Assembly: GCA_045535515.1 (NCBI GenBank)
Contig: JAZSLT010000016.1
Span: 11,598-75,597 of the forward strand
Direction: 5' to 3'
DNA: 64,000 nucleotides
Source of the DNA: Clostridia bacterium
Lineage (GTDB): Bacteria > Bacillota > Clostridia > UMGS1883 > UMGS1540
The notes beneath the pieces are model-generated. The model saw nothing but the letters and a program-made list of their open reading frames with translations. It made no database searches and had not been told where the DNA came from. The position numbers and the translations under genes are program-made. The number at the start of each line of letters is the position of its first letter. The stretch's first letter is position 1. Of this stretch, positions 18,998 to 36,798 are shown piece by piece.

Positions 18998-20893
18998 ATG
19001 ATAACAAGCACAGCGTATTACATCATAAGCGCCGTCCTCGTTTTAGGTGTTCTTCTGGGCATCAGCCGGATGAGCAAGGTAAAAAGCGCCAACAGCGGTA
19101 ACACCCTTTCGGCCGTTTGTACCCTCGTTGCCATTTTGGTTATCATGTATAACTGCGAAATCCTGACGGCGTGGCAGGCCTGGCTTGGGCTTGCAATCGG
19201 TGCGGTTCTCGGCATTATCGGCGCGGTCAAGGTTAAAATGATAGAGATGCCGCAGGCGGTGGCCCTTTTAAATGGTCTGGGCGGTCTTGCCAGCGCACTC
19301 GTGGCGATTTTAACCGTCCAGCAAACAGAAAACCGCTTTGAAATTTATGTAGGTGCGGTCGCTCTCGTTGTCGGCTTTGTTACCTTTACGGGAAGCGTTG
19401 TGGCAGCCGGAAAGCTGCATAAGCTTCTGCCGCAAAAGCCGGTTGTATGGAAGGCACATTCCCTGATTGTAGCCGTTACCATTGTGGCAACCGCTTTGGC
19501 CGTTATTTTCTGCCCCGAATGTATGTGGCTGATTTCCATTTTGTCCGCCTTCTTCGGCGTAGCCTTTGCCATTCGCGTCGGTGGTGCGGATATGCCCATC
19601 ACCATTTCTCTCTTAAATTCCCTAAGCGGTGTTGCCGGCGGTATTGCCGGTATTGCGGTGGGTGATGTTTTGCTTGTGGCGATTGGCGGCATAGTAGGCG
19701 CTTCGGGCCTTTTGCTTACGCAAATTATGTGCCGGGCCATGAACAGAAGCCTTATCAGTATTCTCGTTGGCGGCAAGGCCAAAAAGGCGGCGGCAAAAAT
19801 AGAGAAGGCCGCGGCGCCGGATAAAAAGGAAGAGCCGAAAAAGGAAGAAAAACTAAACGCGGGCGATATTTTAAATGCCGCGAAAAAGGTTATTATCGTA
19901 CCCGGTTATGGCATGGCACTCGGGCAGGCGCAGAGCATTGTTAAGACCTTTGCGGATAAGCTCGAGGCAAACGGCGCCGAGGTAAAATATGCCATCCATC
20001 CTGTCGCCGGCAGAATGCCCGGCCACATGAATGTACTTCTTTGTGAAGTGGATGTGCCGTACGATAAGCTTTACGAAATGGAAACGATTGACGGCGAGTT
20101 TAAGGAATGTGATGTAGCCGTTATCATCGGCGCAAACGATGTAGTAAACCCTGCGGCCAACACTGCAGAGGGCACACCGATTTATGGTATGCCGGTACTC
20201 TCTGCCGCCGATGCGAGACATGTCATTGTATGTAATTTTGACGCAAGTCCCGGCTACGCCGGCGTGCCGAACCCCTTGTATGAGGCGGAAAATACGATTA
20301 TGATGCTCGGTGATGCGAAGGAAACGGTCTCCGGTCTTATCGCAACCATCGGCAAAAGTGCGCCGAATGGCGAGGCGGCACCTGCAAAGAGCGTAAACGC
20401 AGGCGACATCCTGAAAAATGCCAAAAAGGTTATTATCGTACCCGGTTATGGTATGGCACTCGGGCAGGCGCAGAGCATTGTCAAGACCTTTGCGGATAAG
20501 CTGGAGGCAAATGGCGCCGAGGTAAAATATGCCATCCATCCTGTCGCCGGCAGAATGCCCGGCCACATGAATGTACTTCTTTGTGAGGTGGATGTGCCGT
20601 ACGATAAGCTTTACGAAATGGAAGCGATTGACGATGAGTTTAAGGAATGTGATGTAGCCGTTATCATCGGCGCAAACGATGTAGTAAACCCTGCGGCCAA
20701 CACCGCAGAGGGCACACCGATTTATGGTATGCCGGTGCTCTCTGCCGCCGATGCGAGACATGTCATTGTATGTAATTTTGACGCAAGTCCCGGCTACGCC
20801 GGCGTGCCGAACCCCTTGTATGAGGCGGAAAATACAATTATGATGCTCGGTGATGCGAAGGAAACGATAGCAGAGCTAATGTCCGCATTTTAG
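18998..20893 (+). CDS. pntB: NAD(P) transhydrogenase subunit beta with tandemly duplicated dIII (NADP-binding) domain
   Basis: 631 aa versus about 460 expected. TM domain followed by two near-identical copies of the roughly 180 aa dIII domain (VIIVPGYGMALGQAQ...GANDVVNPAA...). Confidence 0.9.
   Translation: MITSTAYYIISAVLVLGVLLGISRMSKVKSANSGNTLSAVCTLVAILVIMYNCEILTAWQAWLGLAIGAVLGIIGAVKVKMIEMPQAVALLNGLGGLASALVAILTVQQTENRFEIYVGAVALVVGFVTFTGSVVAAGKLHKLLPQKPVVWKAHSLIVAVTIVATALAVIFCPECMWLISILSAFFGVAFAIRVGGADMPITISLLNSLSGVAGGIAGIAVGDVLLVAIGGIVGASGLLLTQIMCRAMNRSLISILVGGKAKKAAAKIEKAAAPDKKEEPKKEEKLNAGDILNAAKKVIIVPGYGMALGQAQSIVKTFADKLEANGAEVKYAIHPVAGRMPGHMNVLLCEVDVPYDKLYEMETIDGEFKECDVAVIIGANDVVNPAANTAEGTPIYGMPVLSAADARHVIVCNFDASPGYAGVPNPLYEAENTIMMLGDAKETVSGLIATIGKSAPNGEAAPAKSVNAGDILKNAKKVIIVPGYGMALGQAQSIVKTFADKLEANGAEVKYAIHPVAGRMPGHMNVLLCEVDVPYDKLYEMEAIDDEFKECDVAVIIGANDVVNPAANTAEGTPIYGMPVLSAADARHVIVCNFDASPGYAGVPNPLYEAENTIMMLGDAKETIAELMSAF
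19884..20866 (+). repeat. 540-bp-period in-frame tandem duplication inside pntB (units 19884-20326 and 20424-20866, about 98% identical)
   Basis: Direct nucleotide comparison: about 9 substitutions over 443 bp, most of them synonymous; only 2 amino-acid differences (T to A, G to D). Confidence 0.85.
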
Positions 20894-20964: not shown

Positions 20965-20993
20965 TTGAAAAAATACACATATTGCGGTATAAT
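20965..20993 (+). promoter_or_regulatory. sigma-A promoter reading into hairpin-array element A
   Basis: TTGAAA (20965-70), 17 nt, TATAAT (20988-93). Confidence 0.55.
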
Positions 20994-21010
20994 GATTACA
21001 AGCACTGCCC

Positions 21011-21160
21011 AAAATCGTCGATATGAATCCTTGCCAGAATTCTCGATATGTCGCTAATGCGACGAGAATTCATATCATATCGAGTTCGACCAAAGGAAAA
21101 ACATATCGATTTTGCGACAGCAAAAATATTGAGCAAACGAAGGGTGCATATCGACATAGT
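21011..21160 (+). repeat. hairpin-array element copy A (TCGATATG/CATATCGA motifs interleaved with short hairpins); candidate structured RNA or 5' leader
   Basis: Two forward TCGATATG units (21018, 21043), each followed by a short stem-loop, then three reverse CATATCGA-type units. Same architecture as the elements at 33.4-33.8 kb and 36.5 kb. Confidence 0.6.
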
Positions 21161-21227
21161 TTTTATTCCGGTCTTGACACGAGCTTTGTTGATAAATAAC
21201 AAGATATTTTGAATGTGAGGAAGGAAA

Positions 21228-23594
21228 ATGAAAAAAAGAGTTTTAGGCTTGTTTTTAGGCATCGTTATAATCATGTCGATTTCAACCATTTTTCCGGTTT
21301 GCGCGTTGGAAGAAGCAAGCGGAACTTGTGGTGATAATGTTACATGGACTCTAAATGACGCCGGAAGACTTGTTATACGAGGGGAAGGTGATATGACCAG
21401 CGCGCCATGGCTAACGGAATACAAGAGTGATATTACGGAAATCAAAATAAGAGATGGCGTGACATCCATTTCTCAGAATGCGTTTAATGGATGTATCAAT
21501 CTGGTGGATGTTGATATTGCTGATACTGTTACAACAATTGGAGGAAATGCATTTTATAAATGTGAAAGCCTGACATCTGTGTATTTACCCGAAAGCGTTT
21601 CGACTGTAGGAGGATGTGCGTTTGGATATTGCACAAACTTAGAGGAAATAAACTTTCCGGATGGTGTAACTGTTATTAGGGACAGCATGTTTTTCCGATG
21701 TGTTAATCTAAAAGAAGTGACGCTTCCGGATACAATTATAGACATCGAACGACTTGCCTTTTATGCCTGTGAGAGTCTGGAGGAACTTCAATTACCAGAA
21801 GGGCTGGAAACAATCGGGAGGGAGGCTTTTGCTTTTACCACACTTGGCGATTTGGTTATTCCTGAAAGTGTTAAAAGCATTACCTACCCAGCCTTTGATT
21901 ATAATAGTTATATCTGCCTGAATGTATATGCCGGAAGTTACGCCTTAGAATATGCGCAACAATATAACAAACCGTATGTGATTATAGAGAGGGAAAAAAC
22001 GCCTGCTGAAAAACTTTGCGACATAATCAATGCACAGACCGCAAATTCTTGCGAAGTTAATGCCAAATCACAAACAGTAACCCTTTTATCCGATGTGCAA
22101 CTGTCAGAAACGATTGCAATACCAACCGGCGGGAGCATCATATTGCAAATTGGCGACTTCAGCATTTTAGGGGCAAACGACCTCGATGCTATCCATGTCC
22201 CGACGGATGCCCTCATAAATATTTATGGTTCGGGAATAATTAAGGGCGGAAATGTTACGGAAAGTGGTTATTATGGCGGTAACGGAATTTCCAGTTCGGG
22301 GGAGCTACTTATAAGCGGTCCAACCCTTATTGGCGGCGATGCCCTTGCGGAATATGGATATGCAGGAGCCGGCGTTGAAACATGTGGCGCGGCGCCAACT
22401 TATTTTACAGAAGGTATAATTCAAGCAGGCGAAGGTTGTTATCAAAAAAGGGTGATGTTTGAAAGACTGAATCTTACGGTTGTTAAAGAAAGTGATGATG
22501 GCATAAATTACACGGTTGCTGCAAATTCGTTTTCTAACAATAAAAAATACTTAAAAGCAATTAAAATTTCAAACAATTTATCAGCAGCATCCAAACTTTC
22601 TGCTTTATTAAATGAAATACAAGCGGACACTTGTAGCATTGTCGGGGATGTAATAACATTAAACAAGGATTTTTCTTGCCCTTACGAAATCTATATACCA
22701 ATAGGCGATGCAATCATACTTGATTTTAATGGACATACTGTTACAACATATGATTTCTTTATTCCGTTCATAATACCTGCGCAGGCAGAGATTACTCTTA
22801 AAGGAACAGGTGTGCTTACCAATAAAGAACAAGAGTCCGGGGCGACATCCGGGATGGGCGGAAATGCCGCAGTACTTCCTAACGAAGGACAACTTACCAT
22901 CGATGGAATTACTGTCCGGGGGGCTGGACTATGCGGAATCAATAATTCCGGAGAATTGACAGTAAGTAGCGGAAAAATAATCGGAAGCGATAGTGCGAGC
23001 GGGAGAGAGGCTATATTTAATAGCGGAACGATATGGATATCCGGCGGGGAGATTATAGGTGGTAATGCTACCCGCGACGGCGGAGATGGCGGAGACGGGA
23101 TAGTCGGGCGTGCGTCAGTATCGCCGGACGGCATATATCCTATTAAACTGCATGGTGGTATATTGTGCGGCGGTAAAGGCTTGGGCGATGGTGAAAACGG
23201 AAGCGCAATCAGCACAAGATTTAATGTGGGTGAGGATTGCATCGCATACGAAAGTGATGATGGCGTAAATTATTCTGTATTAGAGGGTACAAGTTGTAGT
23301 GCGCGTTATCTCCAAATTGCAAACAAAAGCGGCAATGCTATATTTACAAGTAATATAGCATATGATGGCACAAATTGGTCATGTAACCTGCATTTGCATA
23401 GTGACGATGCCATAAGCGGTATTGTCTATGCGGCAGTTTATGAAGATAAACAGTTAAAAAAATTAACCCCATTTTCTGCGACAACACAAATTCCCGTCAG
23501 CCTTGCATGCGAAGAAGAACAAACGATTAGAATCTTCTGGTGGGATTCAAATTTAGAACCCAAAAGTCGAACGGTAGAGATAGAAGTGCAATAA
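21228..23594 (+). CDS. secreted cell-surface protein with BspA-type leucine-rich repeats and Gly-rich beta-helix-like repeats
   Basis: Signal peptide. Repeated units such as IPESVKSIGxxAF and VTSISQNAFNGC are typical of the LRR_5/BspA class. Downstream GG(N/D)G-rich repeats. Gene is AT-richer than its flanks. Confidence 0.65.
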   Translation: MKKRVLGLFLGIVIIMSISTIFPVCALEEASGTCGDNVTWTLNDAGRLVIRGEGDMTSAPWLTEYKSDITEIKIRDGVTSISQNAFNGCINLVDVDIADTVTTIGGNAFYKCESLTSVYLPESVSTVGGCAFGYCTNLEEINFPDGVTVIRDSMFFRCVNLKEVTLPDTIIDIERLAFYACESLEELQLPEGLETIGREAFAFTTLGDLVIPESVKSITYPAFDYNSYICLNVYAGSYALEYAQQYNKPYVIIEREKTPAEKLCDIINAQTANSCEVNAKSQTVTLLSDVQLSETIAIPTGGSIILQIGDFSILGANDLDAIHVPTDALINIYGSGIIKGGNVTESGYYGGNGISSSGELLISGPTLIGGDALAEYGYAGAGVETCGAAPTYFTEGIIQAGEGCYQKRVMFERLNLTVVKESDDGINYTVAANSFSNNKKYLKAIKISNNLSAASKLSALLNEIQADTCSIVGDVITLNKDFSCPYEIYIPIGDAIILDFNGHTVTTYDFFIPFIIPAQAEITLKGTGVLTNKEQESGATSGMGGNAAVLPNEGQLTIDGITVRGAGLCGINNSGELTVSSGKIIGSDSASGREAIFNSGTIWISGGEIIGGNATRDGGDGGDGIVGRASVSPDGIYPIKLHGGILCGGKGLGDGENGSAISTRFNVGEDCIAYESDDGVNYSVLEGTSCSARYLQIANKSGNAIFTSNIAYDGTNWSCNLHLHSDDAISGIVYAAVYEDKQLKKLTPFSATTQIPVSLACEEEQTIRIFWWDSNLEPKSRTVEIEVQ

Positions 23595-23718
23595 TCTTTT
23601 GTGTGACAAAACGCGAGAGATTTTACGCATGTCAAGTCTATAAATTTAAAGGAACAGCCTACCAATTTTAAATTTTTACATACACTGGCAAAACAGAAAC
23701 CAGCTGGGAGGACGAAAA

Positions 23719-33346: not shown

Positions 33347-33375
33347 TTGACTATTTTTCGTATGTATGCTATAAT
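33347..33375 (+). promoter_or_regulatory. sigma-A promoter reading into hairpin-array element B
   Basis: TTGACT (33347-52), 17 nt, TATAAT (33370-75). An 11-bp perfect hairpin starts 1 nt later. Confidence 0.6.
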
Positions 33376-33840
33376 GAATTTAATTGCAAAGCAATTAAAT
33401 TCAGCGATATAAATTCCTTACGGAATTTGCGATATGTACTTCGTACGCGATATATCTTCGATGCGATATGTCCCTTCGGGACGAGAAATAGGAATTTATA
33501 TCATATCGCAACGGAATGAAATGGAGTTATATCGCATTTGAACGGAGAGAAAATATATCGCACGAGCGTGAGCGAGTATATCGCCAAAAAGTTGGCATCT
33601 AAATTGTGCACGAATTCTATAATGATTTCATCTTTGATGAAATCAGCGATATAAATCTCTTGCGAGATTTTCGATATGTCACAAGTGACCCGATATGTGC
33701 TAACGCACTCGATATGTTGCCCACAGGCAACGAGATTTATATCATATCGAGTTTTGAGCGAAGCGAAAAACATATCGATTTTACGAAAGTAAAAATATCG
33801 AGCAATCGTAGATTGCATATCGACAAAACAGGCTGCATCT
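33376..33840 (+). repeat. hairpin-array element copies B1 and B2 (tandem, about 242-bp period); candidate structured RNA or long 5' leader of czcD
   Basis: B1 (about 33376-33600) uses GCGATAT(G)/ATATCGC motifs. B2 (about 33640-33840) uses TCGATATG/CATATCGA. Both open with (a)TCAGCGATATAAA plus a hairpin and contain ATATCATATCG at mid-element. Confidence 0.6.
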
Positions 33841-33891
33841 TTTCTATCACCTAATTCTATACCGGAACAAATGACCGGGAGGAGGGTTTTT

Positions 33892-34785
33892 ATGCAATCC
33901 GATAAAAAAATACGCGCGGCGTTCTTTTTAAATCTCATGTTTTCTATTATAGAATGTGTGGGTGGCCTTTGGACAGGAAGTGTGGCCATTCTTTCCGATG
34001 CCCTGCATGATTTTGGGGACAGTATCAGCATTGGCATTTCCTACTTTCTGGAAAAGACGAGCCAAAAGGAGCCGGATAATCAGCACACCTACGGATACAG
34101 GCGGTACAGCGTGTTGGGCAGCGTGATTACCACGGTAATTTTACTCTTTGGCTCGCTGGCGGTATTGTATCATGCCGTACCGAGAATTTTTCGTCCTGTG
34201 CCGGTAAACTACGACGGTGTCCTGGCGTTGGCGGTAATGGGCGTGCTTATCAATTTTTTGGCCGCCTATTTTACTAAAGAGAAGGACTCCTTAAACCAAA
34301 GAGCCGTCAATCTCCACATGCTGGAGGATGTTCTGGGCTGGCTGGCCGTTTTGGTCGGGGCCGTTTGTATGAAAATCTGGGATGCGCCCTGGATAGACCC
34401 GCTTTTATCGGCGGGTGTGGCCGTCTTTATTTTCGTGCATGCCGCGAAAACCTTAAAAAGTGCCATAGATATCTTCCTCGAAAAAACGCCGGCCAATATA
34501 AGCGCGGCCAAAATCCGGGAAATTGCTCTCGGGGTAGACGGCGTTTTGGATGCGCACCATATCCACATCCGCACGCTGGACGGGTATCTGCATTATGCCA
34601 CTCTGCATGTGGTGACGGATGCGGCGCCGAAAGAAATAAAGCACAGAATCAAGGAGGCGCTCTCTGCATGCGGCATCTCCCACACGACCATCGAGATAGA
34701 AACGAGCGAGGAAGGGTGCGACGATGTTTTCTGTAAAACCGACACTTCCCGACCGCATCACGAACACCACCACCATCATCACTAA
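33892..34785 (+). CDS. czcD: cation diffusion facilitator family transporter (CzcD-like) with His-rich C-terminus
   Basis: 6-TM CDF fold, HDxxD-type motifs (LHDFGDS) and C-terminal HHEHHHHHH. ATG at 33892 lies 8 nt after GGAGG. Confidence 0.8.
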   Translation: MQSDKKIRAAFFLNLMFSIIECVGGLWTGSVAILSDALHDFGDSISIGISYFLEKTSQKEPDNQHTYGYRRYSVLGSVITTVILLFGSLAVLYHAVPRIFRPVPVNYDGVLALAVMGVLINFLAAYFTKEKDSLNQRAVNLHMLEDVLGWLAVLVGAVCMKIWDAPWIDPLLSAGVAVFIFVHAAKTLKSAIDIFLEKTPANISAAKIREIALGVDGVLDAHHIHIRTLDGYLHYATLHVVTDAAPKEIKHRIKEALSACGISHTTIEIETSEEGCDDVFCKTDTSRPHHEHHHHHH

Positions 34786-36463: not shown

Positions 36464-36489
36464 GGCTTTCGGCTACATAATAGATGCAA

Positions 36490-36675
36490 GTTATTTTTTC
36501 GATATGCAATCTTCGATTGCTCGATATTTTTGTTATCACAAAATCGATATAATCTCACTTCGTTCGATTGAGATATGATATAAATCTCGTTGCCGTAAGG
36601 CAACATATCGTGTGCACCAGCACATATCGAGTTAATTTTAACATATCGAAAATCTCGACAGAGATTTATATCGAT
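36490..36675 (+). repeat. hairpin-array element copy C (stand-alone, between two terminators)
   Basis: TCGATATG at 36498, then TCGATAT x2 with hairpins, then ATATCG(A) x4 in the opposite orientation. Confidence 0.55.
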
Positions 36676-36712
36676 GAAAAAACGACTTGTCGGAAAACAA
36701 GTCGTTTTTTCT
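36676..36712. terminator. bidirectional terminator downstream of tRNA-Leu
   Basis: ACGACTTGT...ACAAGTCGT stem flanked by an A-run and a T-run. Confidence 0.7.
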
Positions 36713-36798
36713 GGTGCTCGAGACCGGAATCGAACCGGTACGGGATTGCTCCCACGGGATTTTAAGTCCCGGGCGTCTGCCAGTTCCGCCACTCGAGC
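36712..36798 (-). tRNA. tRNA-Leu (anticodon UAA), type II with long variable arm
   Basis: Reverse complement folds as GCTCGAG acceptor, anticodon stem CGGGA/TCCCG with loop CTTAAAA, long variable arm, T-loop TTCGATT and 3' CCA. Confidence 0.85.

What the first reader, a model, noticed from the sequence alone, without database searches (positions are those of the whole stretch)
20965..21160. Hairpin-array element copy A behind its own sigma-A promoter, forming the 5' leader of the LRR surface-protein gene
Immediately after the pntB terminator, a TTGAAA-17-TATAAT promoter reads into about 150 bp organised like elements B and C. Two TCGATATG units are each followed by a stem-loop (tcgc-taat-gcga). 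The junction is gagaattcATATCATATCGAG, and reverse units ACATATCGAT and GCATATCGAC are separated by the hairpins ttttgcgacagcaaaa and so on. No terminator separates it from the LRR gene at 21228, so it would form a leader of about 220 nt. Two very different genes, a surface adhesin-like LRR protein and the CzcD metal exporter, therefore carry the same unusual leader architecture, which suggests shared post-transcriptional control. The element also marks the 5' boundary of the AT-rich LRR islet.
Basis: seen in the sequence. Interest (0 to 1): 0.7.

Follow-up and report, generated by a model that had tools for sequence, protein, structure and literature searches.

The report
Decayed hairpin-array RNA element, Gut-1 family
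The sequence upstream of the LRR gene is a shortened, partly decayed copy of a widespread gut-Clostridia repeat made of a 7-base unit alternating with small hairpins; it is a divergent full-length form of the orphan Gut-1 RNA motif, and in other genomes it sits next to a small four-helix-bundle protein gene that is its likely binding partner.

Summary
TCGATATG occurs 14 times in the window against 1.7 expected. Thirteen of these lie in four elements: A (20982-21156), B1, B2 and C.

An intact element has this order:
- a clamp hairpin, P0
- four forward units, NCGATAT, each followed by a hairpin
- a centre, X'-ATATC
- four reverse units, ATATCGN, separated by hairpins

Hairpin stems covary freely while the 6-mer cores never change.

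At least 117 loci in uncultured Oscillospiraceae and Acutalibacteraceae genomes carry the element. Rfam's Gut-1 model (RF01706, function unknown) covers only the forward half of sister variants with TGAAAT or TGATAT units. The window's copies fall below its threshold.

A scores 80 bits on my model, against 153-177 for the others. It lacks two units and has broken pairs, but keeps an 11/12 sigma-A promoter, so it probably is the LRR leader.

The leader is not gene-specific. Copies follow tRNAs, precede terminators, and are absent upstream of the nearest czcD homologs.

The main new link is a PF05635/TIGR02436 four-helix-bundle gene (Avd and 23S-IVS protein family). It is almost always adjacent to such an array, and its clades match the unit sequence.

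Best reading: a structured RNA platform for that protein, with A as a satellite copy that donates a promoter. That the RNA is made, and that the protein binds it, are both inferred, not shown.

The parts
20965..20993 (+). Sigma-A-type promoter of copy A (TTGAAA, 17-nt spacer, TATAAT).
   Evidence: It matches 11 of 12 positions. The same layout of promoter, then P0, then array recurs in B1 and in L004, L011, L047, L054, L091 and L114.
20994..21017 (+). Decayed remnant of the 5' clamp hairpin P0 (gattacaagcactgcccaaaatcg).
   Evidence: Intact relatives have GATTGCAAGC-aaa-GCTTGAAATC at this position. In A the 3' arm no longer pairs (read directly from the sequence).
21018..21050 (+). Forward half of A: U1 TCGATATG (21018-21025), degenerate hairpin X/X' (GAATCCT tgcc AGAATTC, 21025-21042), U2 TCGATATG (21043-21050). 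Two further unit-plus-hairpin modules found in intact copies are missing.
   Evidence: The modal family architecture is 4 forward plus 4 reverse units, seen in 73 of 123 parsed occurrences.
21051..21076 (+). Hairpin h4 (tcgc-taat-gcga), then the distal X' (GAGAATTC) and the central half-unit ATATC.
   Evidence: The distal X' is complementary to X in 103 of 120 elements at 6/7 or better.
21077..21155 (+). Reverse half of A: R1 ATATCGA (21077-21083), h5 (decayed GA/GA hairpin), R2 (21103-21109), h6 ttttgc-gaca-gcaaaa (21110-21125), R3 mutated to ATATTGA (21126-21132), h7 gcaaac-gaa-gggtgc (mispaired), R4 (21148-21154).
   Evidence: The model alignment marks non-canonical pairs in h5, h7 and the unit helices.
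21228..23594 (+). BspA-type LRR surface-protein gene downstream of A. It is a neighbour, not part of the element.
   Evidence: Pfam LRR_5, E 2.5e-63. GC is 0.39-0.45.
33347..33586 (+). Copy B1: promoter TTGACT-17-TATAAT (33347-33375), P0, then a full 4+4 array of the GCGATAT/ATATCGC subtype (33402-33586).
   Evidence: It scores 153 bits on R1. Its forward half scores 34.6 bits against Rfam Gut-1, below the gathering score of 50.
33620..33825 (+). Copy B2: TATAAT plus P0 (33620-33645), then a full 4+4 array of the TCGATAT subtype (33644-33825). It is followed by the tail GCATCTTTTCTATCACCT and the Cation_efflux gene (33871-34785).
   Evidence: MFE -58.3 kcal/mol, z -5.7. It scores 177 bits. Pfam assignment.
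36497..36712 (-). Copy C: an A6-stem-T6 terminator acting as P0 (36678-36712), directly after tRNA-Leu (36715-36798, minus strand), then a full array (36676-36497).
   Evidence: z -5.1; tRNA gap of 38 nt. It scores 169.5 bits. A strong terminator lies downstream at 36462-36423.

Best explanation
Copy A is a shortened, partly decayed satellite copy of a dispersed family of modular elements about 180-230 nt long. I read these as structured RNAs: the full-length form, in a divergent CGAUAU-unit variant, of the orphan Gut-1 RNA motif.

**Architecture of an intact element**
- a 5' clamp hairpin, P0
- four forward units, NCGAUAU, each followed by a short hairpin
- an AU-rich centre, X'-AUAUC
- four reverse units, AUAUCGN, separated by hairpins with GNRA or GNA loops

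**Two competing folds.** Forward and reverse units are exact complements.
- In the 'ladder' fold they zip into four 7-8-bp helices joined by four-way junctions.
- In the 'open' fold, U1-X pairs with the distal X'-AUAUC. This leaves the other units single-stranded.
- Covariation maintains both the proximal and the distal X' pairing, which points to a conformational switch.

**Inferred partner.** Within a lineage the units are invariant. Between lineages all of them change together. I infer that a small pentameric four-helix-bundle protein recognises them (PF05635/TIGR02436, the family of DGR Avd and the 23S-rRNA IVS proteins). Its gene lies immediately next to one copy, or between the two halves, and its clades match the unit sequence.

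**Role of the gene-less copies.** A, B1, B2 and C are extra platforms scattered through the genome. Their effect on neighbouring genes is incidental. In A, what selection appears to keep is the element-borne sigma-A promoter, which now probably drives the LRR gene through a degenerate structured leader.

**Shown:** the architecture, the covariation of hairpins and of X/X'/X', the distribution, the gene adjacency, and the decay of A.
**Inferred:** transcription, protein binding, and any regulatory outcome.
For: **Family and structure**
- At least 117 genomic loci carry the element.
- Local hairpins show many double compensatory changes.
- X pairs with the proximal X' in 105 of 120 elements and with the distal X' in 103 of 120, across at least 9 X variants. 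A random-partner control gives 10% perfect matches, against 69% observed.
- The intact copies fold far better than shuffles, z -5.1 to -5.7.

**Strand and RNA evidence**
- G.U pairs in the reverse-half hairpins number 32 on the top strand and 2 on the bottom.
- Forward-half tetraloops are UGAC, UUGC, UAAC and UUAC. Reverse-half loops are GNRA or GAA. The two sets are not mirror images.
- The nearest upstream gene is co-oriented in 85 cases against 21.
- 11 of 11 tRNA-linked copies are co-oriented.
- In rumA-array-4HB operons, P0 is made of rumA's last codons and the RBS follows the last unit by about 10 nt. The array must therefore lie within the mRNA.

**Protein link**
- In 10 genomic loci the PF05635 gene starts 16-31 nt after the last unit.
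- A metagenome scan found 547 relatives. By my estimate about 65 of 69 non-redundant loci with enough flank carry an array next to the gene. The automatic count gave 44, and the GTGATAT group was added by eye.
- Protein clusters coincide with unit type: TCGATAT 16/17, GCGATAT 7/7, TGAAAT 10/10, and TGATAT and CTAAAT as adjacent leaves.
- Bona fide Rfam Gut-1 hits (52-72 bits) lie between a tRNA and this gene.
- Precedent: the Avd pentamer grips an RNA stem-loop with all five protomers (10.1101/2023.10.23.563531).

**Decay of A**
- A scores 80 bits against 153-177 for the other copies. It lacks two units, R3 is mutated, and the promoter is intact.
Against: - No expression data exist. Transcription is inferred only.
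- Most copies have no recognisable promoter: 8 of 110 do, and many sit straight after a terminator-like P0.
- In TGAAAT and TGATAT variants a TTGAAA-17-TATAAT promoter lies between the array and the 4HB gene. There the array is upstream of the promoter, which would also fit a DNA operator.
- The forward-half hairpins show no strand bias in wobble pairs, 7 against 11.
- The long-range unit helices rest on invariant sequence. Flanking positions correlate by subfamily, not specifically in the nested pattern, so the ladder is unproven.
- Gene and adjacent array are physically linked, so co-divergence alone does not prove recognition.
- No 4HB gene lies in the 64-kb window.
- The element's overall dyad symmetry is more typical of DNA-level elements.
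Confidence: 0.5

Rival explanations
1. A DNA-level repetitive mobile element, analogous to REP/BIME/REPIN or a MITE. The hairpins would form in single-stranded DNA, and the two half-arrays would act like terminal inverted arrays. Gene-less copies would be non-autonomous derivatives of a half-array, gene, half-array unit. The 4HB protein would be the cognate mobility or maintenance factor, or only a passenger.
For: - The element has dyad symmetry: R-halves hit the Gut-1 model on the opposite strand.
- Copies are scattered and non-syntenic among close relatives.
- Tandem copies (B1-B2, L014) and truncated or decayed copies (A) occur.
- Unit number varies.
- The same P0 terminator sequence follows different tRNAs in different genomes, directly after the CCA end.
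- The halves can flank the gene: F-gene-R in L140, and R-gene-F in L121, L128 and L129.
- GAA triloops closed by C:G match what I recall as the stable DNA mini-hairpin GCGAAGC (from memory, not checked here; loop counts).
- Several unit types each have their own protein clade in one genome (L014), as in REPIN-RAYT systems.
Against: - No transposase, HUH, RAYT or recombinase gene is associated. PF05635 has no known catalytic activity.
- I noticed no target-site duplications in the flanks I read, but did not look for them systematically.
- Top-strand-specific G.U pairs (32 against 2) and co-orientation with transcription argue for RNA.
- In the rumA operons the arrays are embedded in mRNAs.
- Only 2 hits occur in 2.9 million viral contigs.
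- This rival does not exclude the RNA-protein model.
Confidence: 0.22
2. One reading: a gene-specific cis-regulatory leader, riboswitch-like or thermosensor-like, that gives the LRR adhesin and the CzcD exporter shared post-transcriptional control.
For: - A and B1 carry strong promoters, with no terminator before the downstream genes.
- The alternative X/X' pairings look switch-like.
- Some copies end 3-20 nt before an RBS.
Against: - Downstream genes are unrelated to each other: 4HB, metF-like, ABC-F, transporters and many others.
- Many copies are followed by terminators or by convergent genes.
- The four nearest CzcD homologues lack the array.
- No Rfam riboswitch matches, and in particular none for NiCo/czcD.
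- A is decaying.
Confidence: 0.07
3. A double-stranded DNA operator array. The 4HB protein would be a DNA-binding autoregulator that recognises the 7-bp units in either orientation upstream of its own promoter.
For: - In TGAAAT and TGATAT variants the last unit abuts the -35 box of a TTGAAA-17-TATAAT promoter for the 4HB gene.
- Forward and reverse units are the same site in opposite orientation.
- Many arrays follow terminators and have no promoter of their own.
Against: - Spacing between units varies from 19 to 28 bp, with no helical phasing.
- The intervening palindromes keep pairing, not sequence, which a duplex-binding model does not explain.
- G.U asymmetry is strand-specific.
- In the CGATAT type the array lies inside the transcript, directly before the RBS.
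- Avd homologues are known to bind RNA stem-loops.
Confidence: 0.1
4. A type III toxin-antitoxin-like pair. The repeat array would be processed into units that neutralise the adjacent small protein.
For: A repeat array lies immediately upstream of a small protein gene, sometimes with a terminator or promoter between them. This resembles the toxI-toxN layout.
Against: - The units are 7 nt and in inverted halves, not about 36-nt direct repeats.
- The protein is TIGR02436/PF05635, not a ToxN, CptN or TenpN endoribonuclease, and it has no PADLOC hit.
- About 90% of arrays are orphans far from any such gene.
Confidence: 0.04

Closest known systems
Gut-1 RNA motif (Rfam RF01706; Weinberg et al. 2010, PMC2864571)
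   Same: - It shares the building plan: consecutive short hairpins separated by a conserved 7-nt linker.
- It shares the habitat, uncultured gut Clostridia.
- The authors' own alignment with flanks shows the reverse half as well.
- Bona fide Gut-1 hits lie in the same locus type as the arrays studied here, tRNA then terminator then array then PF05635 gene.
- B1's forward half aligns end to end with the model.
   Different: - The Rfam model covers only the forward half (77 nt) and units GUGAAAU or GUGAUAU.
- The window's copies use (U/G)CGAUAU. They score 34.6 bits (B1) or nothing (A), against a gathering score of 50.
- The published description gives no function, no protein partner and no reverse half.
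Avd-Spacer RNA interaction in diversity-generating retroelements
   Same: - The adjacent protein belongs to the same four-helix-bundle pentamer family: PF05635, and PDB 2RLD at E 2e-33.
- Avd binds an RNA stem-loop capped by a UNCG or GNRA tetraloop, using all five protomers and flipped-out bases.
   Different: - No reverse transcriptase, template repeat or variable repeat is listed among the called genes of L201. This was not checked systematically in other loci.
- Here there are eight short hairpins with repeated linkers, not one 9-11-bp stem-loop.
- Most arrays are far from any 4HB gene.
23S rRNA intervening sequences encoding S23p/IVS proteins
   Same: The protein family is the same. In some loci the gene is bracketed by complementary sequences, F-half then gene then R-half (L140, L121, L128), which could enclose it in an RNA stem, as an IVS does.
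   Different: - The element is not inside an rRNA gene. It lies after tRNAs, after rumA or between ordinary genes.
- The stem is a modular ladder of 7-mers and hairpins, not one long helix.
- RNase III processing has not been tested.
REP/BIME/REPIN elements with their RAYT transposases
   Same: - Short hairpin units occur in inverted arrangement.
- There are many gene-less copies plus one copy next to a cognate protein gene.
- Repeat sequence and protein clade co-vary, and several populations can share one genome.
   Different: - The associated protein is not an HUH/IS200-like transposase.
- Hairpin stems are not conserved in sequence; only the 7-mer linkers are.
- Strand-specific G.U pairs and mRNA embedding point to RNA.
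Protein-sponge sRNAs such as CsrB/RsmZ
   Same: They are also modular RNAs that present many copies of a short conserved motif on or between variable hairpins.
   Different: - The motif here lies between hairpins, in two complementary orientations that can pair with each other.
- No CsrA-type protein is involved.
- No sponge function has been shown.

Membership tests
Gut-1 RNA (RF01706) | Scores at or above the Rfam gathering threshold of 50 bits. | tested here: not met
   No Gut-1 call anywhere in the window at gathering. B1 scores 34.6 bits. Copy A gets no hit even at E up to 10. Sister arrays with TGAAAT or TGATAT units score 52-72 bits.
Gut-1 RNA (RF01706) | Three or more consecutive short hairpins separated by a repeated, conserved 7-nt linker. 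| tested here: met
   This holds in B1, B2 and C and in 120 relatives. In A only two linkers and two hairpins of this half remain, one of them degenerate.
Gut-1 RNA (RF01706) | The same locus type and host range as the seed sequences. | tested here: met
   The seed BAAZ01025322.1 (tRNA, terminator, array) reads the same as the L148/L153 locus, which continues into a PF05635 gene. Hosts are gut Clostridia. Copy A itself is an orphan copy, not at such a locus.
Extended hairpin-array family defined here (model R1) | Full architecture P0, 4 forward units, X/X'/X', centre, 4 reverse units; significant score on the family covariance model. | tested here: met
   A scores 80.2 bits, E about 8e-15, but with two forward units missing and several broken pairs. 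B2, C and B1 score 177, 169.5 and 153 bits.
REP/BIME/REPIN-RAYT | Association with a RAYT gene (IS200/IS605-type HUH transposase) flanked by the repeats. | tested here: not met
   The recurrent adjacent gene is PF05635/TIGR02436. I saw no transposase next to the arrays in the loci I inspected, but I did not search whole genomes.
Gene-specific riboswitch or leader (for example NiCo/czcD) | Conserved position upstream of orthologous genes of one functional class. | tested here: not met
   Four nearest Cation_efflux homologues lack the array. Downstream genes are heterogeneous. No Rfam riboswitch matches.
Type III toxin-antitoxin (ToxIN-like) | Direct tandem repeats of about 36 nt upstream of a ToxN-family endoribonuclease. 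| tested here: not met
   The arrays are inverted halves of 7-nt units. The protein is a four-helix bundle with no PADLOC hit.
DGR Avd-RNA module | An Avd-family protein together with a DGR reverse transcriptase and TR/VR repeats. | tested here: inconclusive
   The Avd-family protein is present. No RT appears among the called genes of L201. A systematic RT search was not done.
23S rRNA intervening sequence | Located inside a 23S rRNA gene, replacing a helix tip. | tested here: not met
   No rRNA was found in the window or the loci scanned. The arrays lie after tRNAs, after rumA or between protein genes.
Structured RNA (general) | Transcribed, and folded in vivo. | not testable with these tools
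   Only indirect evidence is available: promoters in a subset of copies, embedding in an operon, strand-specific G.U pairs and covariation.

The most novel reading that the evidence does not exclude
Gut-1-type hairpin arrays and PF05635 four-helix-bundle proteins may form a previously unrecognised, co-evolving system.
- Each protein clade would read its own 7-nt unit (CGAUAU, UGAAAU, UGAUAU or CUAAAU), displayed eight times on a switchable ladder of four-way junctions.
- The gene would sit beside or between the two half-arrays, as in a 23S rRNA intervening sequence.
- Gene-less copies would spread through the genome, as REPINs do around a RAYT.

If so, an orphan RNA motif known since 2010 would gain a partner, and so would the Avd/S23p family outside diversity-generating retroelements, whose IVS-encoded members were first described in 1993.
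Probability: 0.4. Interest if true: 0.85.

Novelty: new variant of a known kind. Interest (0 to 1): 0.68.

Why it matters
For the window, the result is deflationary. Copy A is a decaying satellite of a common repeat. The LRR and CzcD genes are unlikely to share a dedicated control circuit. The element probably supplies the LRR gene's promoter and a structured 5' end.

For the family, three points follow.
- **Gut-1 is half an element.** The Rfam motif models only the forward half of a dyad-symmetric module of about 200 nt, with two competing folds. Rfam also misses whole variants, those with CGAUAU and CUAAAU units.
- **A candidate partner.** These arrays are almost always next to genes of the PF05635/TIGR02436 family. 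That family is homologous to DGR Avd and to the proteins encoded in 23S rRNA intervening sequences. I found no assigned function for it outside retroelements in the literature I could search.
- **A testable hypothesis.** Each protein clade should recognise its own repeated unit. This applies to some of the most abundant and least studied gut Clostridia. It may also explain why this protein family turns up inside or beside structured RNA genes.

Tried and rejected
- **Loop-loop (kissing) complementarity between forward and reverse hairpins.** Counts equal the shuffled expectation, so I rejected it.
- **Nested covariation to prove the long-range unit helices.** The 6-mer cores are invariant, and flank positions correlate by subfamily only. 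Inconclusive.
- **Each half read on its own strand (divergent ssDNA or RNA).** Forward-half wobble pairs show no bottom-strand excess, and the forward loop repertoire is not the mirror of the reverse one. Not supported.
- **Empty-site comparison at pntB.** Gene order after pntB differs in every relative, so no clean empty site was found.
- **Phage origin.** Only 2 hits in the viral collection.
- **Literature.** I searched for the unit sequence, for Gut-1, and for PF05635, IVS protein, HEPN and Avd-like terms. No paper in the searchable library links these arrays to the protein.
- **Own-promoter hypothesis for the whole family.** Only 8 of 110 copies have a promoter matching 10 of 12 positions or better. 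Terminator counts are symmetric, 31 against 31, because P0 is often bidirectional.
- **A 4HB gene in the window.** None found by tblastn.
Full report
**1. The observation**

The 8-mer TCGATATG occurs 14 times in the 64-kb window, against 1.73 expected. No shuffle reached that number. Thirteen copies fall in three clusters, at 21018-21154, 33405-33823 and 36499-36674. The middle cluster is a tandem pair, so the window holds four elements:
- A on the + strand
- B1 at 33402-33586 on the + strand
- B2 at 33644-33825 on the + strand
- C at 36497-36676 on the - strand

The promoter TTGAAA-17-TATAAT at 20965-20993 matches 11 of 12 positions. No terminator-like site separates A from the ATG at 21228. 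The neighbouring genes are PntB, a BspA-type LRR protein, RsmD and a Cation_efflux protein. The LRR region is AT-rich, GC 0.39-0.45 against about 0.52.

**2. Anatomy of the family**

Almost all are uncultured Oscillospiraceae, Acutalibacteraceae and other Clostridia from ruminant and human guts. Only two hits came from 2.9 million viral contigs.

From the 122 non-identical elements (123 parsed occurrences) the canonical plan is as follows:
- a hairpin P0 abutting the first unit ('GCA|TCGATAT')
- U1, then X, a loop and X'
- three more forward units NCGATAT(G), each followed by a short hairpin
- a second copy of X', followed by ATATC
- four reverse units ATATCGN separated by three hairpins

Four forward plus four reverse units is the modal form, seen in 73 of the 123 parsed occurrences. 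Unit number varies from 2 to 5 per half in all but one parse.

Hairpin stems differ between positions. Between copies they change by compensatory substitutions. RNAalifold on 59 elements found 26 of 51 pairs with double changes, all in local hairpins or at helix ends. The 6-mer cores CGATAT and ATATCG are invariant.

X is complementary to the adjacent X' in 105 of 120 elements (6/7 or better) and to the distal X' in 103 of 120. Both hold in 99, across at least nine X variants. Random pairing gives 10% perfect matches, against 69% observed. So two mutually exclusive helices are both maintained.
- In the first fold, the 'ladder', X pairs locally. Each forward unit pairs with a reverse unit, giving 7-8-bp helices joined by four-way junctions. 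This is the minimum-free-energy fold of B2, z -5.7.
- In the second fold, U1-X pairs with X'-ATATC over 12 bp. All other units are left single-stranded.

The ladder's long helices cannot be verified by covariation, because their sequence never varies. Flanking positions correlate by subfamily, not in a specifically nested way.

**3. RNA or DNA, and which strand**

Evidence for a top-strand RNA:
- Wobble pairs in the reverse-half hairpins number 32 on the top strand and 2 on the bottom.
- Forward-half tetraloops (UGAC, UUGC, UAAC, UUAC) and reverse-half loops (GAA, GCAA, GUAA, GAUA) are different repertoires, not mirror images.
- The nearest upstream gene is co-oriented in 85 cases against 21.
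- All 11 tRNA-linked copies are co-oriented.
- A subset has TTGxxx-17-TATAAT directly before P0.
- In the rumA-array-4HB operon of a close relative (L201, PntB 87% identical), P0 is built from rumA's last codons, with the stop codon inside its 3' arm. The 4HB RBS follows the last unit by about 10 nt. There is no room for a promoter, so the array must be part of the mRNA.

Evidence against, or neutral:
- Only 8 of 110 copies have a good promoter of their own.
- Terminator counts are symmetric, because P0 is often an A6-stem-T6 bidirectional terminator.
- The forward half shows no wobble bias.
- The overall dyad symmetry is typical of DNA elements.

No expression data were available to me.

**4. 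Relation to Gut-1**

At gathering thresholds Rfam reports only two tRNAs in the window. With relaxed thresholds, B1's forward half matches Gut-1 (RF01706) end to end at 34.6 bits, against a gathering score of 50. A gives nothing.

Weinberg et al. (2010) described Gut-1 from 43 human-gut metagenome sequences. It comprises three hairpins separated by GUGAAAU. They rated it a likely non-coding RNA and gave it no function. Their own alignment with flanks shows the reverse half too, for example AUAUCAC units in BAAZ01000095.1.

In the metagenomic loci I fetched, bona fide Gut-1 hits of 52-72 bits lie between a tRNA gene and a PF05635 gene. The reverse halves hit the model on the opposite strand. 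Arrays with CGATAT or CTAAAT units get no call.

The window's elements are therefore a divergent variant of the Gut-1 kind, and the Rfam model captures half of the real element.

**5. The protein link**

In ten genomic loci a 115-120-aa gene starts 16-31 nt after the last unit on the same strand. Its assignments are:
- PF05635, 23S rRNA IVS protein, E 1.5e-22
- TIGR02436, four helix bundle protein, 84 bits
- nearest solved structure 2RLD, deposited with five chains, E 2e-33
- no PADLOC hit

A metagenome scan with an alignment of these proteins found 547 relatives. Among the non-redundant loci with enough flank, I estimate that about 65 of 69 carry an array next to the gene. The automatic count was 44. 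The GTGATAT group was added by eye, because a promoter match confused my filter.

The unit changes with the protein. The variants are TCGATAT, GCGATAT, GTGAAAT/ATGAAAT, GTGATAT, TGAAATC and GCTAAAT. Average-linkage clusters of 44 proteins coincide with unit type: 16/17, 7/7 and 10/10, plus two adjacent-leaf groups.

The usual order is F-half, R-half, gene. I also found:
- R-half, gene, F-half (L121, L128, L129)
- F-half, gene, R-half (L140)
- F-R, gene, F (L039, L109)

So the halves are separable modules that can bracket the gene.

One genome fragment (L014) holds a 4HB gene with a GCTAAAT array and, about 1 kb away, two orphan CGATAT arrays.

One caveat applies. An array and its adjacent gene are linked, so they will co-diverge whether or not they interact. 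The non-trivial facts are that all eight or so units change together, and that unlinked orphan copies carry the same units.

For a mechanistic precedent, cryo-EM work on the Bordetella phage DGR shows the Avd pentamer gripping an RNA stem-loop with all five protomers through flipped-out bases. The same study predicts comparable stem-loops, capped by GNRA or UNCG, in 207 of 278 DGRs (10.1101/2023.10.23.563531).

I found no paper connecting PF05635 with Gut-1 or with hairpin arrays.

**6. What copy A is**

On the family covariance model A scores 80 bits, against 153-177 for the other three copies. Compared with its closest relatives (X = GAATTCT type, for example L011):
- it lacks two unit-plus-hairpin modules
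- its P0, X hairpin, h5 and h7 have lost pairs
- R3 reads ATATTGA

The promoter remains near-consensus. Its fold is less exceptional, z -3.6.

Two relatives with 86-87% identical PntB have no array after pntB. Gene order there differs in each of them. A third relative's contig ends too close to pntB to show this. The low-GC LRR gene and A are thus lineage-specific.

The four nearest homologues of the Cation_efflux protein have other genes 10-20 nt upstream and no array.

The simplest reading is that A is a decaying satellite copy. Its promoter has been kept and now drives the LRR gene, and a weak TTGACA-like site at 21173 is an alternative start.

**7. Mechanism I commit to, and its status**

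I consider it most likely, at about 0.5, that the family is a structured RNA platform for its cognate four-helix-bundle protein.
- The repeated units would be the recognition elements.
- The X/X'/X' switch would toggle them between paired (ladder) and exposed states.
- The copy next to the gene would provide autoregulation or assembly.
- Orphan copies would act as additional platforms, with only incidental effects on neighbours.

A DNA-level REPIN- or MITE-like life cycle (0.22) is the main rival and may coexist with this.

Shown here: the architecture, the covariation, the distribution, the adjacency to the 4HB gene, the match between unit type and protein clade, and the decay of A. Inferred: transcription of most copies, protein binding, and any regulatory consequence.

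**8. Novelty**

The element belongs to a known but uncharacterised kind (Gut-1), in a variant that Rfam does not detect. The full dyad architecture, the two competing folds and the near-constant partnership with PF05635 genes appear to be unreported in the literature I could search. I could not search subscription-only papers.

Noticed in passing
window 33347-33825: B1 and B2 form a head-to-tail tandem of two different subtypes, GCGATAT then TCGATAT, each with its own TATAAT and P0. Locus L014 has the same kind of mixed tandem in the opposite order.
   Followed up: partly
window 33826-33870; 36470-36496 (minus strand); L002, L035, L036, L085, L088: Conserved tails of 20-30 nt follow the last unit and begin with TGCATCT. 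Examples are GCATCTTTTCTATCACCT after B2 (it contains AUCACCU, which resembles the 16S rRNA 3' end as I recall it), GCATCTAAACCATTCGGCTCTTCC elsewhere, and TGCATCTATTATGTAGCCGAAAGSC shared by C and L036. Some overlap a -35/-10-like pair for the next gene or the next element. Their function is unknown.
   Followed up: no
window 33717-33745 (+) and 36603-36575 (-): A weak internal promoter-like site, TTGCCY-17-TATCAT (9/12), is formed by hairpin h4 and the AT-rich centre. It would start a transcript containing only the reverse half.
   Followed up: no
L010, L012, L033, L035, L050, L053, L063, L068, L071, L092; window 36678-36798: Arrays begin 34-49 nt after tRNA genes of seven different specificities. 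The gap is filled exactly by an A6-stem-T6 hairpin that starts right after the CCA end. Nearly the same hairpin sequence follows different tRNAs in different genomes. This suggests either a targeted insertion site or that the terminator travels with the element.
   Followed up: partly
L201 9500-9560; L038, L045, L106: In the rumA-array-4HB locus the P0 hairpin is made of the last 12 or so codons of the rumA-like methyltransferase, with the stop codon inside the 3' arm. The stem covaries between species while remaining coding.
   Followed up: partly
L121, L128, L129, L140, L130, L039, L109: Half-arrays occur alone on either side of the 4HB gene, and a forward half can directly precede the RBS of the next gene. 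The two halves could pair across the gene and enclose it in a stem, as a 23S rRNA intervening sequence does.
   Followed up: partly
window 21000-23600: The LRR gene region has GC 0.39-0.45, against about 0.52 for its flanks, and is absent after pntB in the two relatives whose downstream sequence could be read. It was probably acquired horizontally, possibly together with copy A.
   Followed up: partly
window 18998-20893: The PntB protein is 631 aa, with a C-terminal extension that weakly matches TPP_enzyme_M. Many homologues are 810-1040 aa, with further C-terminal domains.
   Followed up: no
reverse-half hairpin h5, e.g. window 33751-33770: The first reverse-half hairpin keeps a conserved motif: stem, tandem G.A/A.G, a 2-bp stem, then a GAA or GNRA loop (UUUGAGCGAAGCGAAAA, AACCGACCGAAAGGGAGGUU). 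This looks like a specific tertiary or protein-recognition feature, distinct from the other hairpins.
   Followed up: no
L118, L119 (IMG/VR contigs): Two contigs labelled viral carry an array. I did not check whether they are real phages or mis-binned chromosomal fragments.
   Followed up: no
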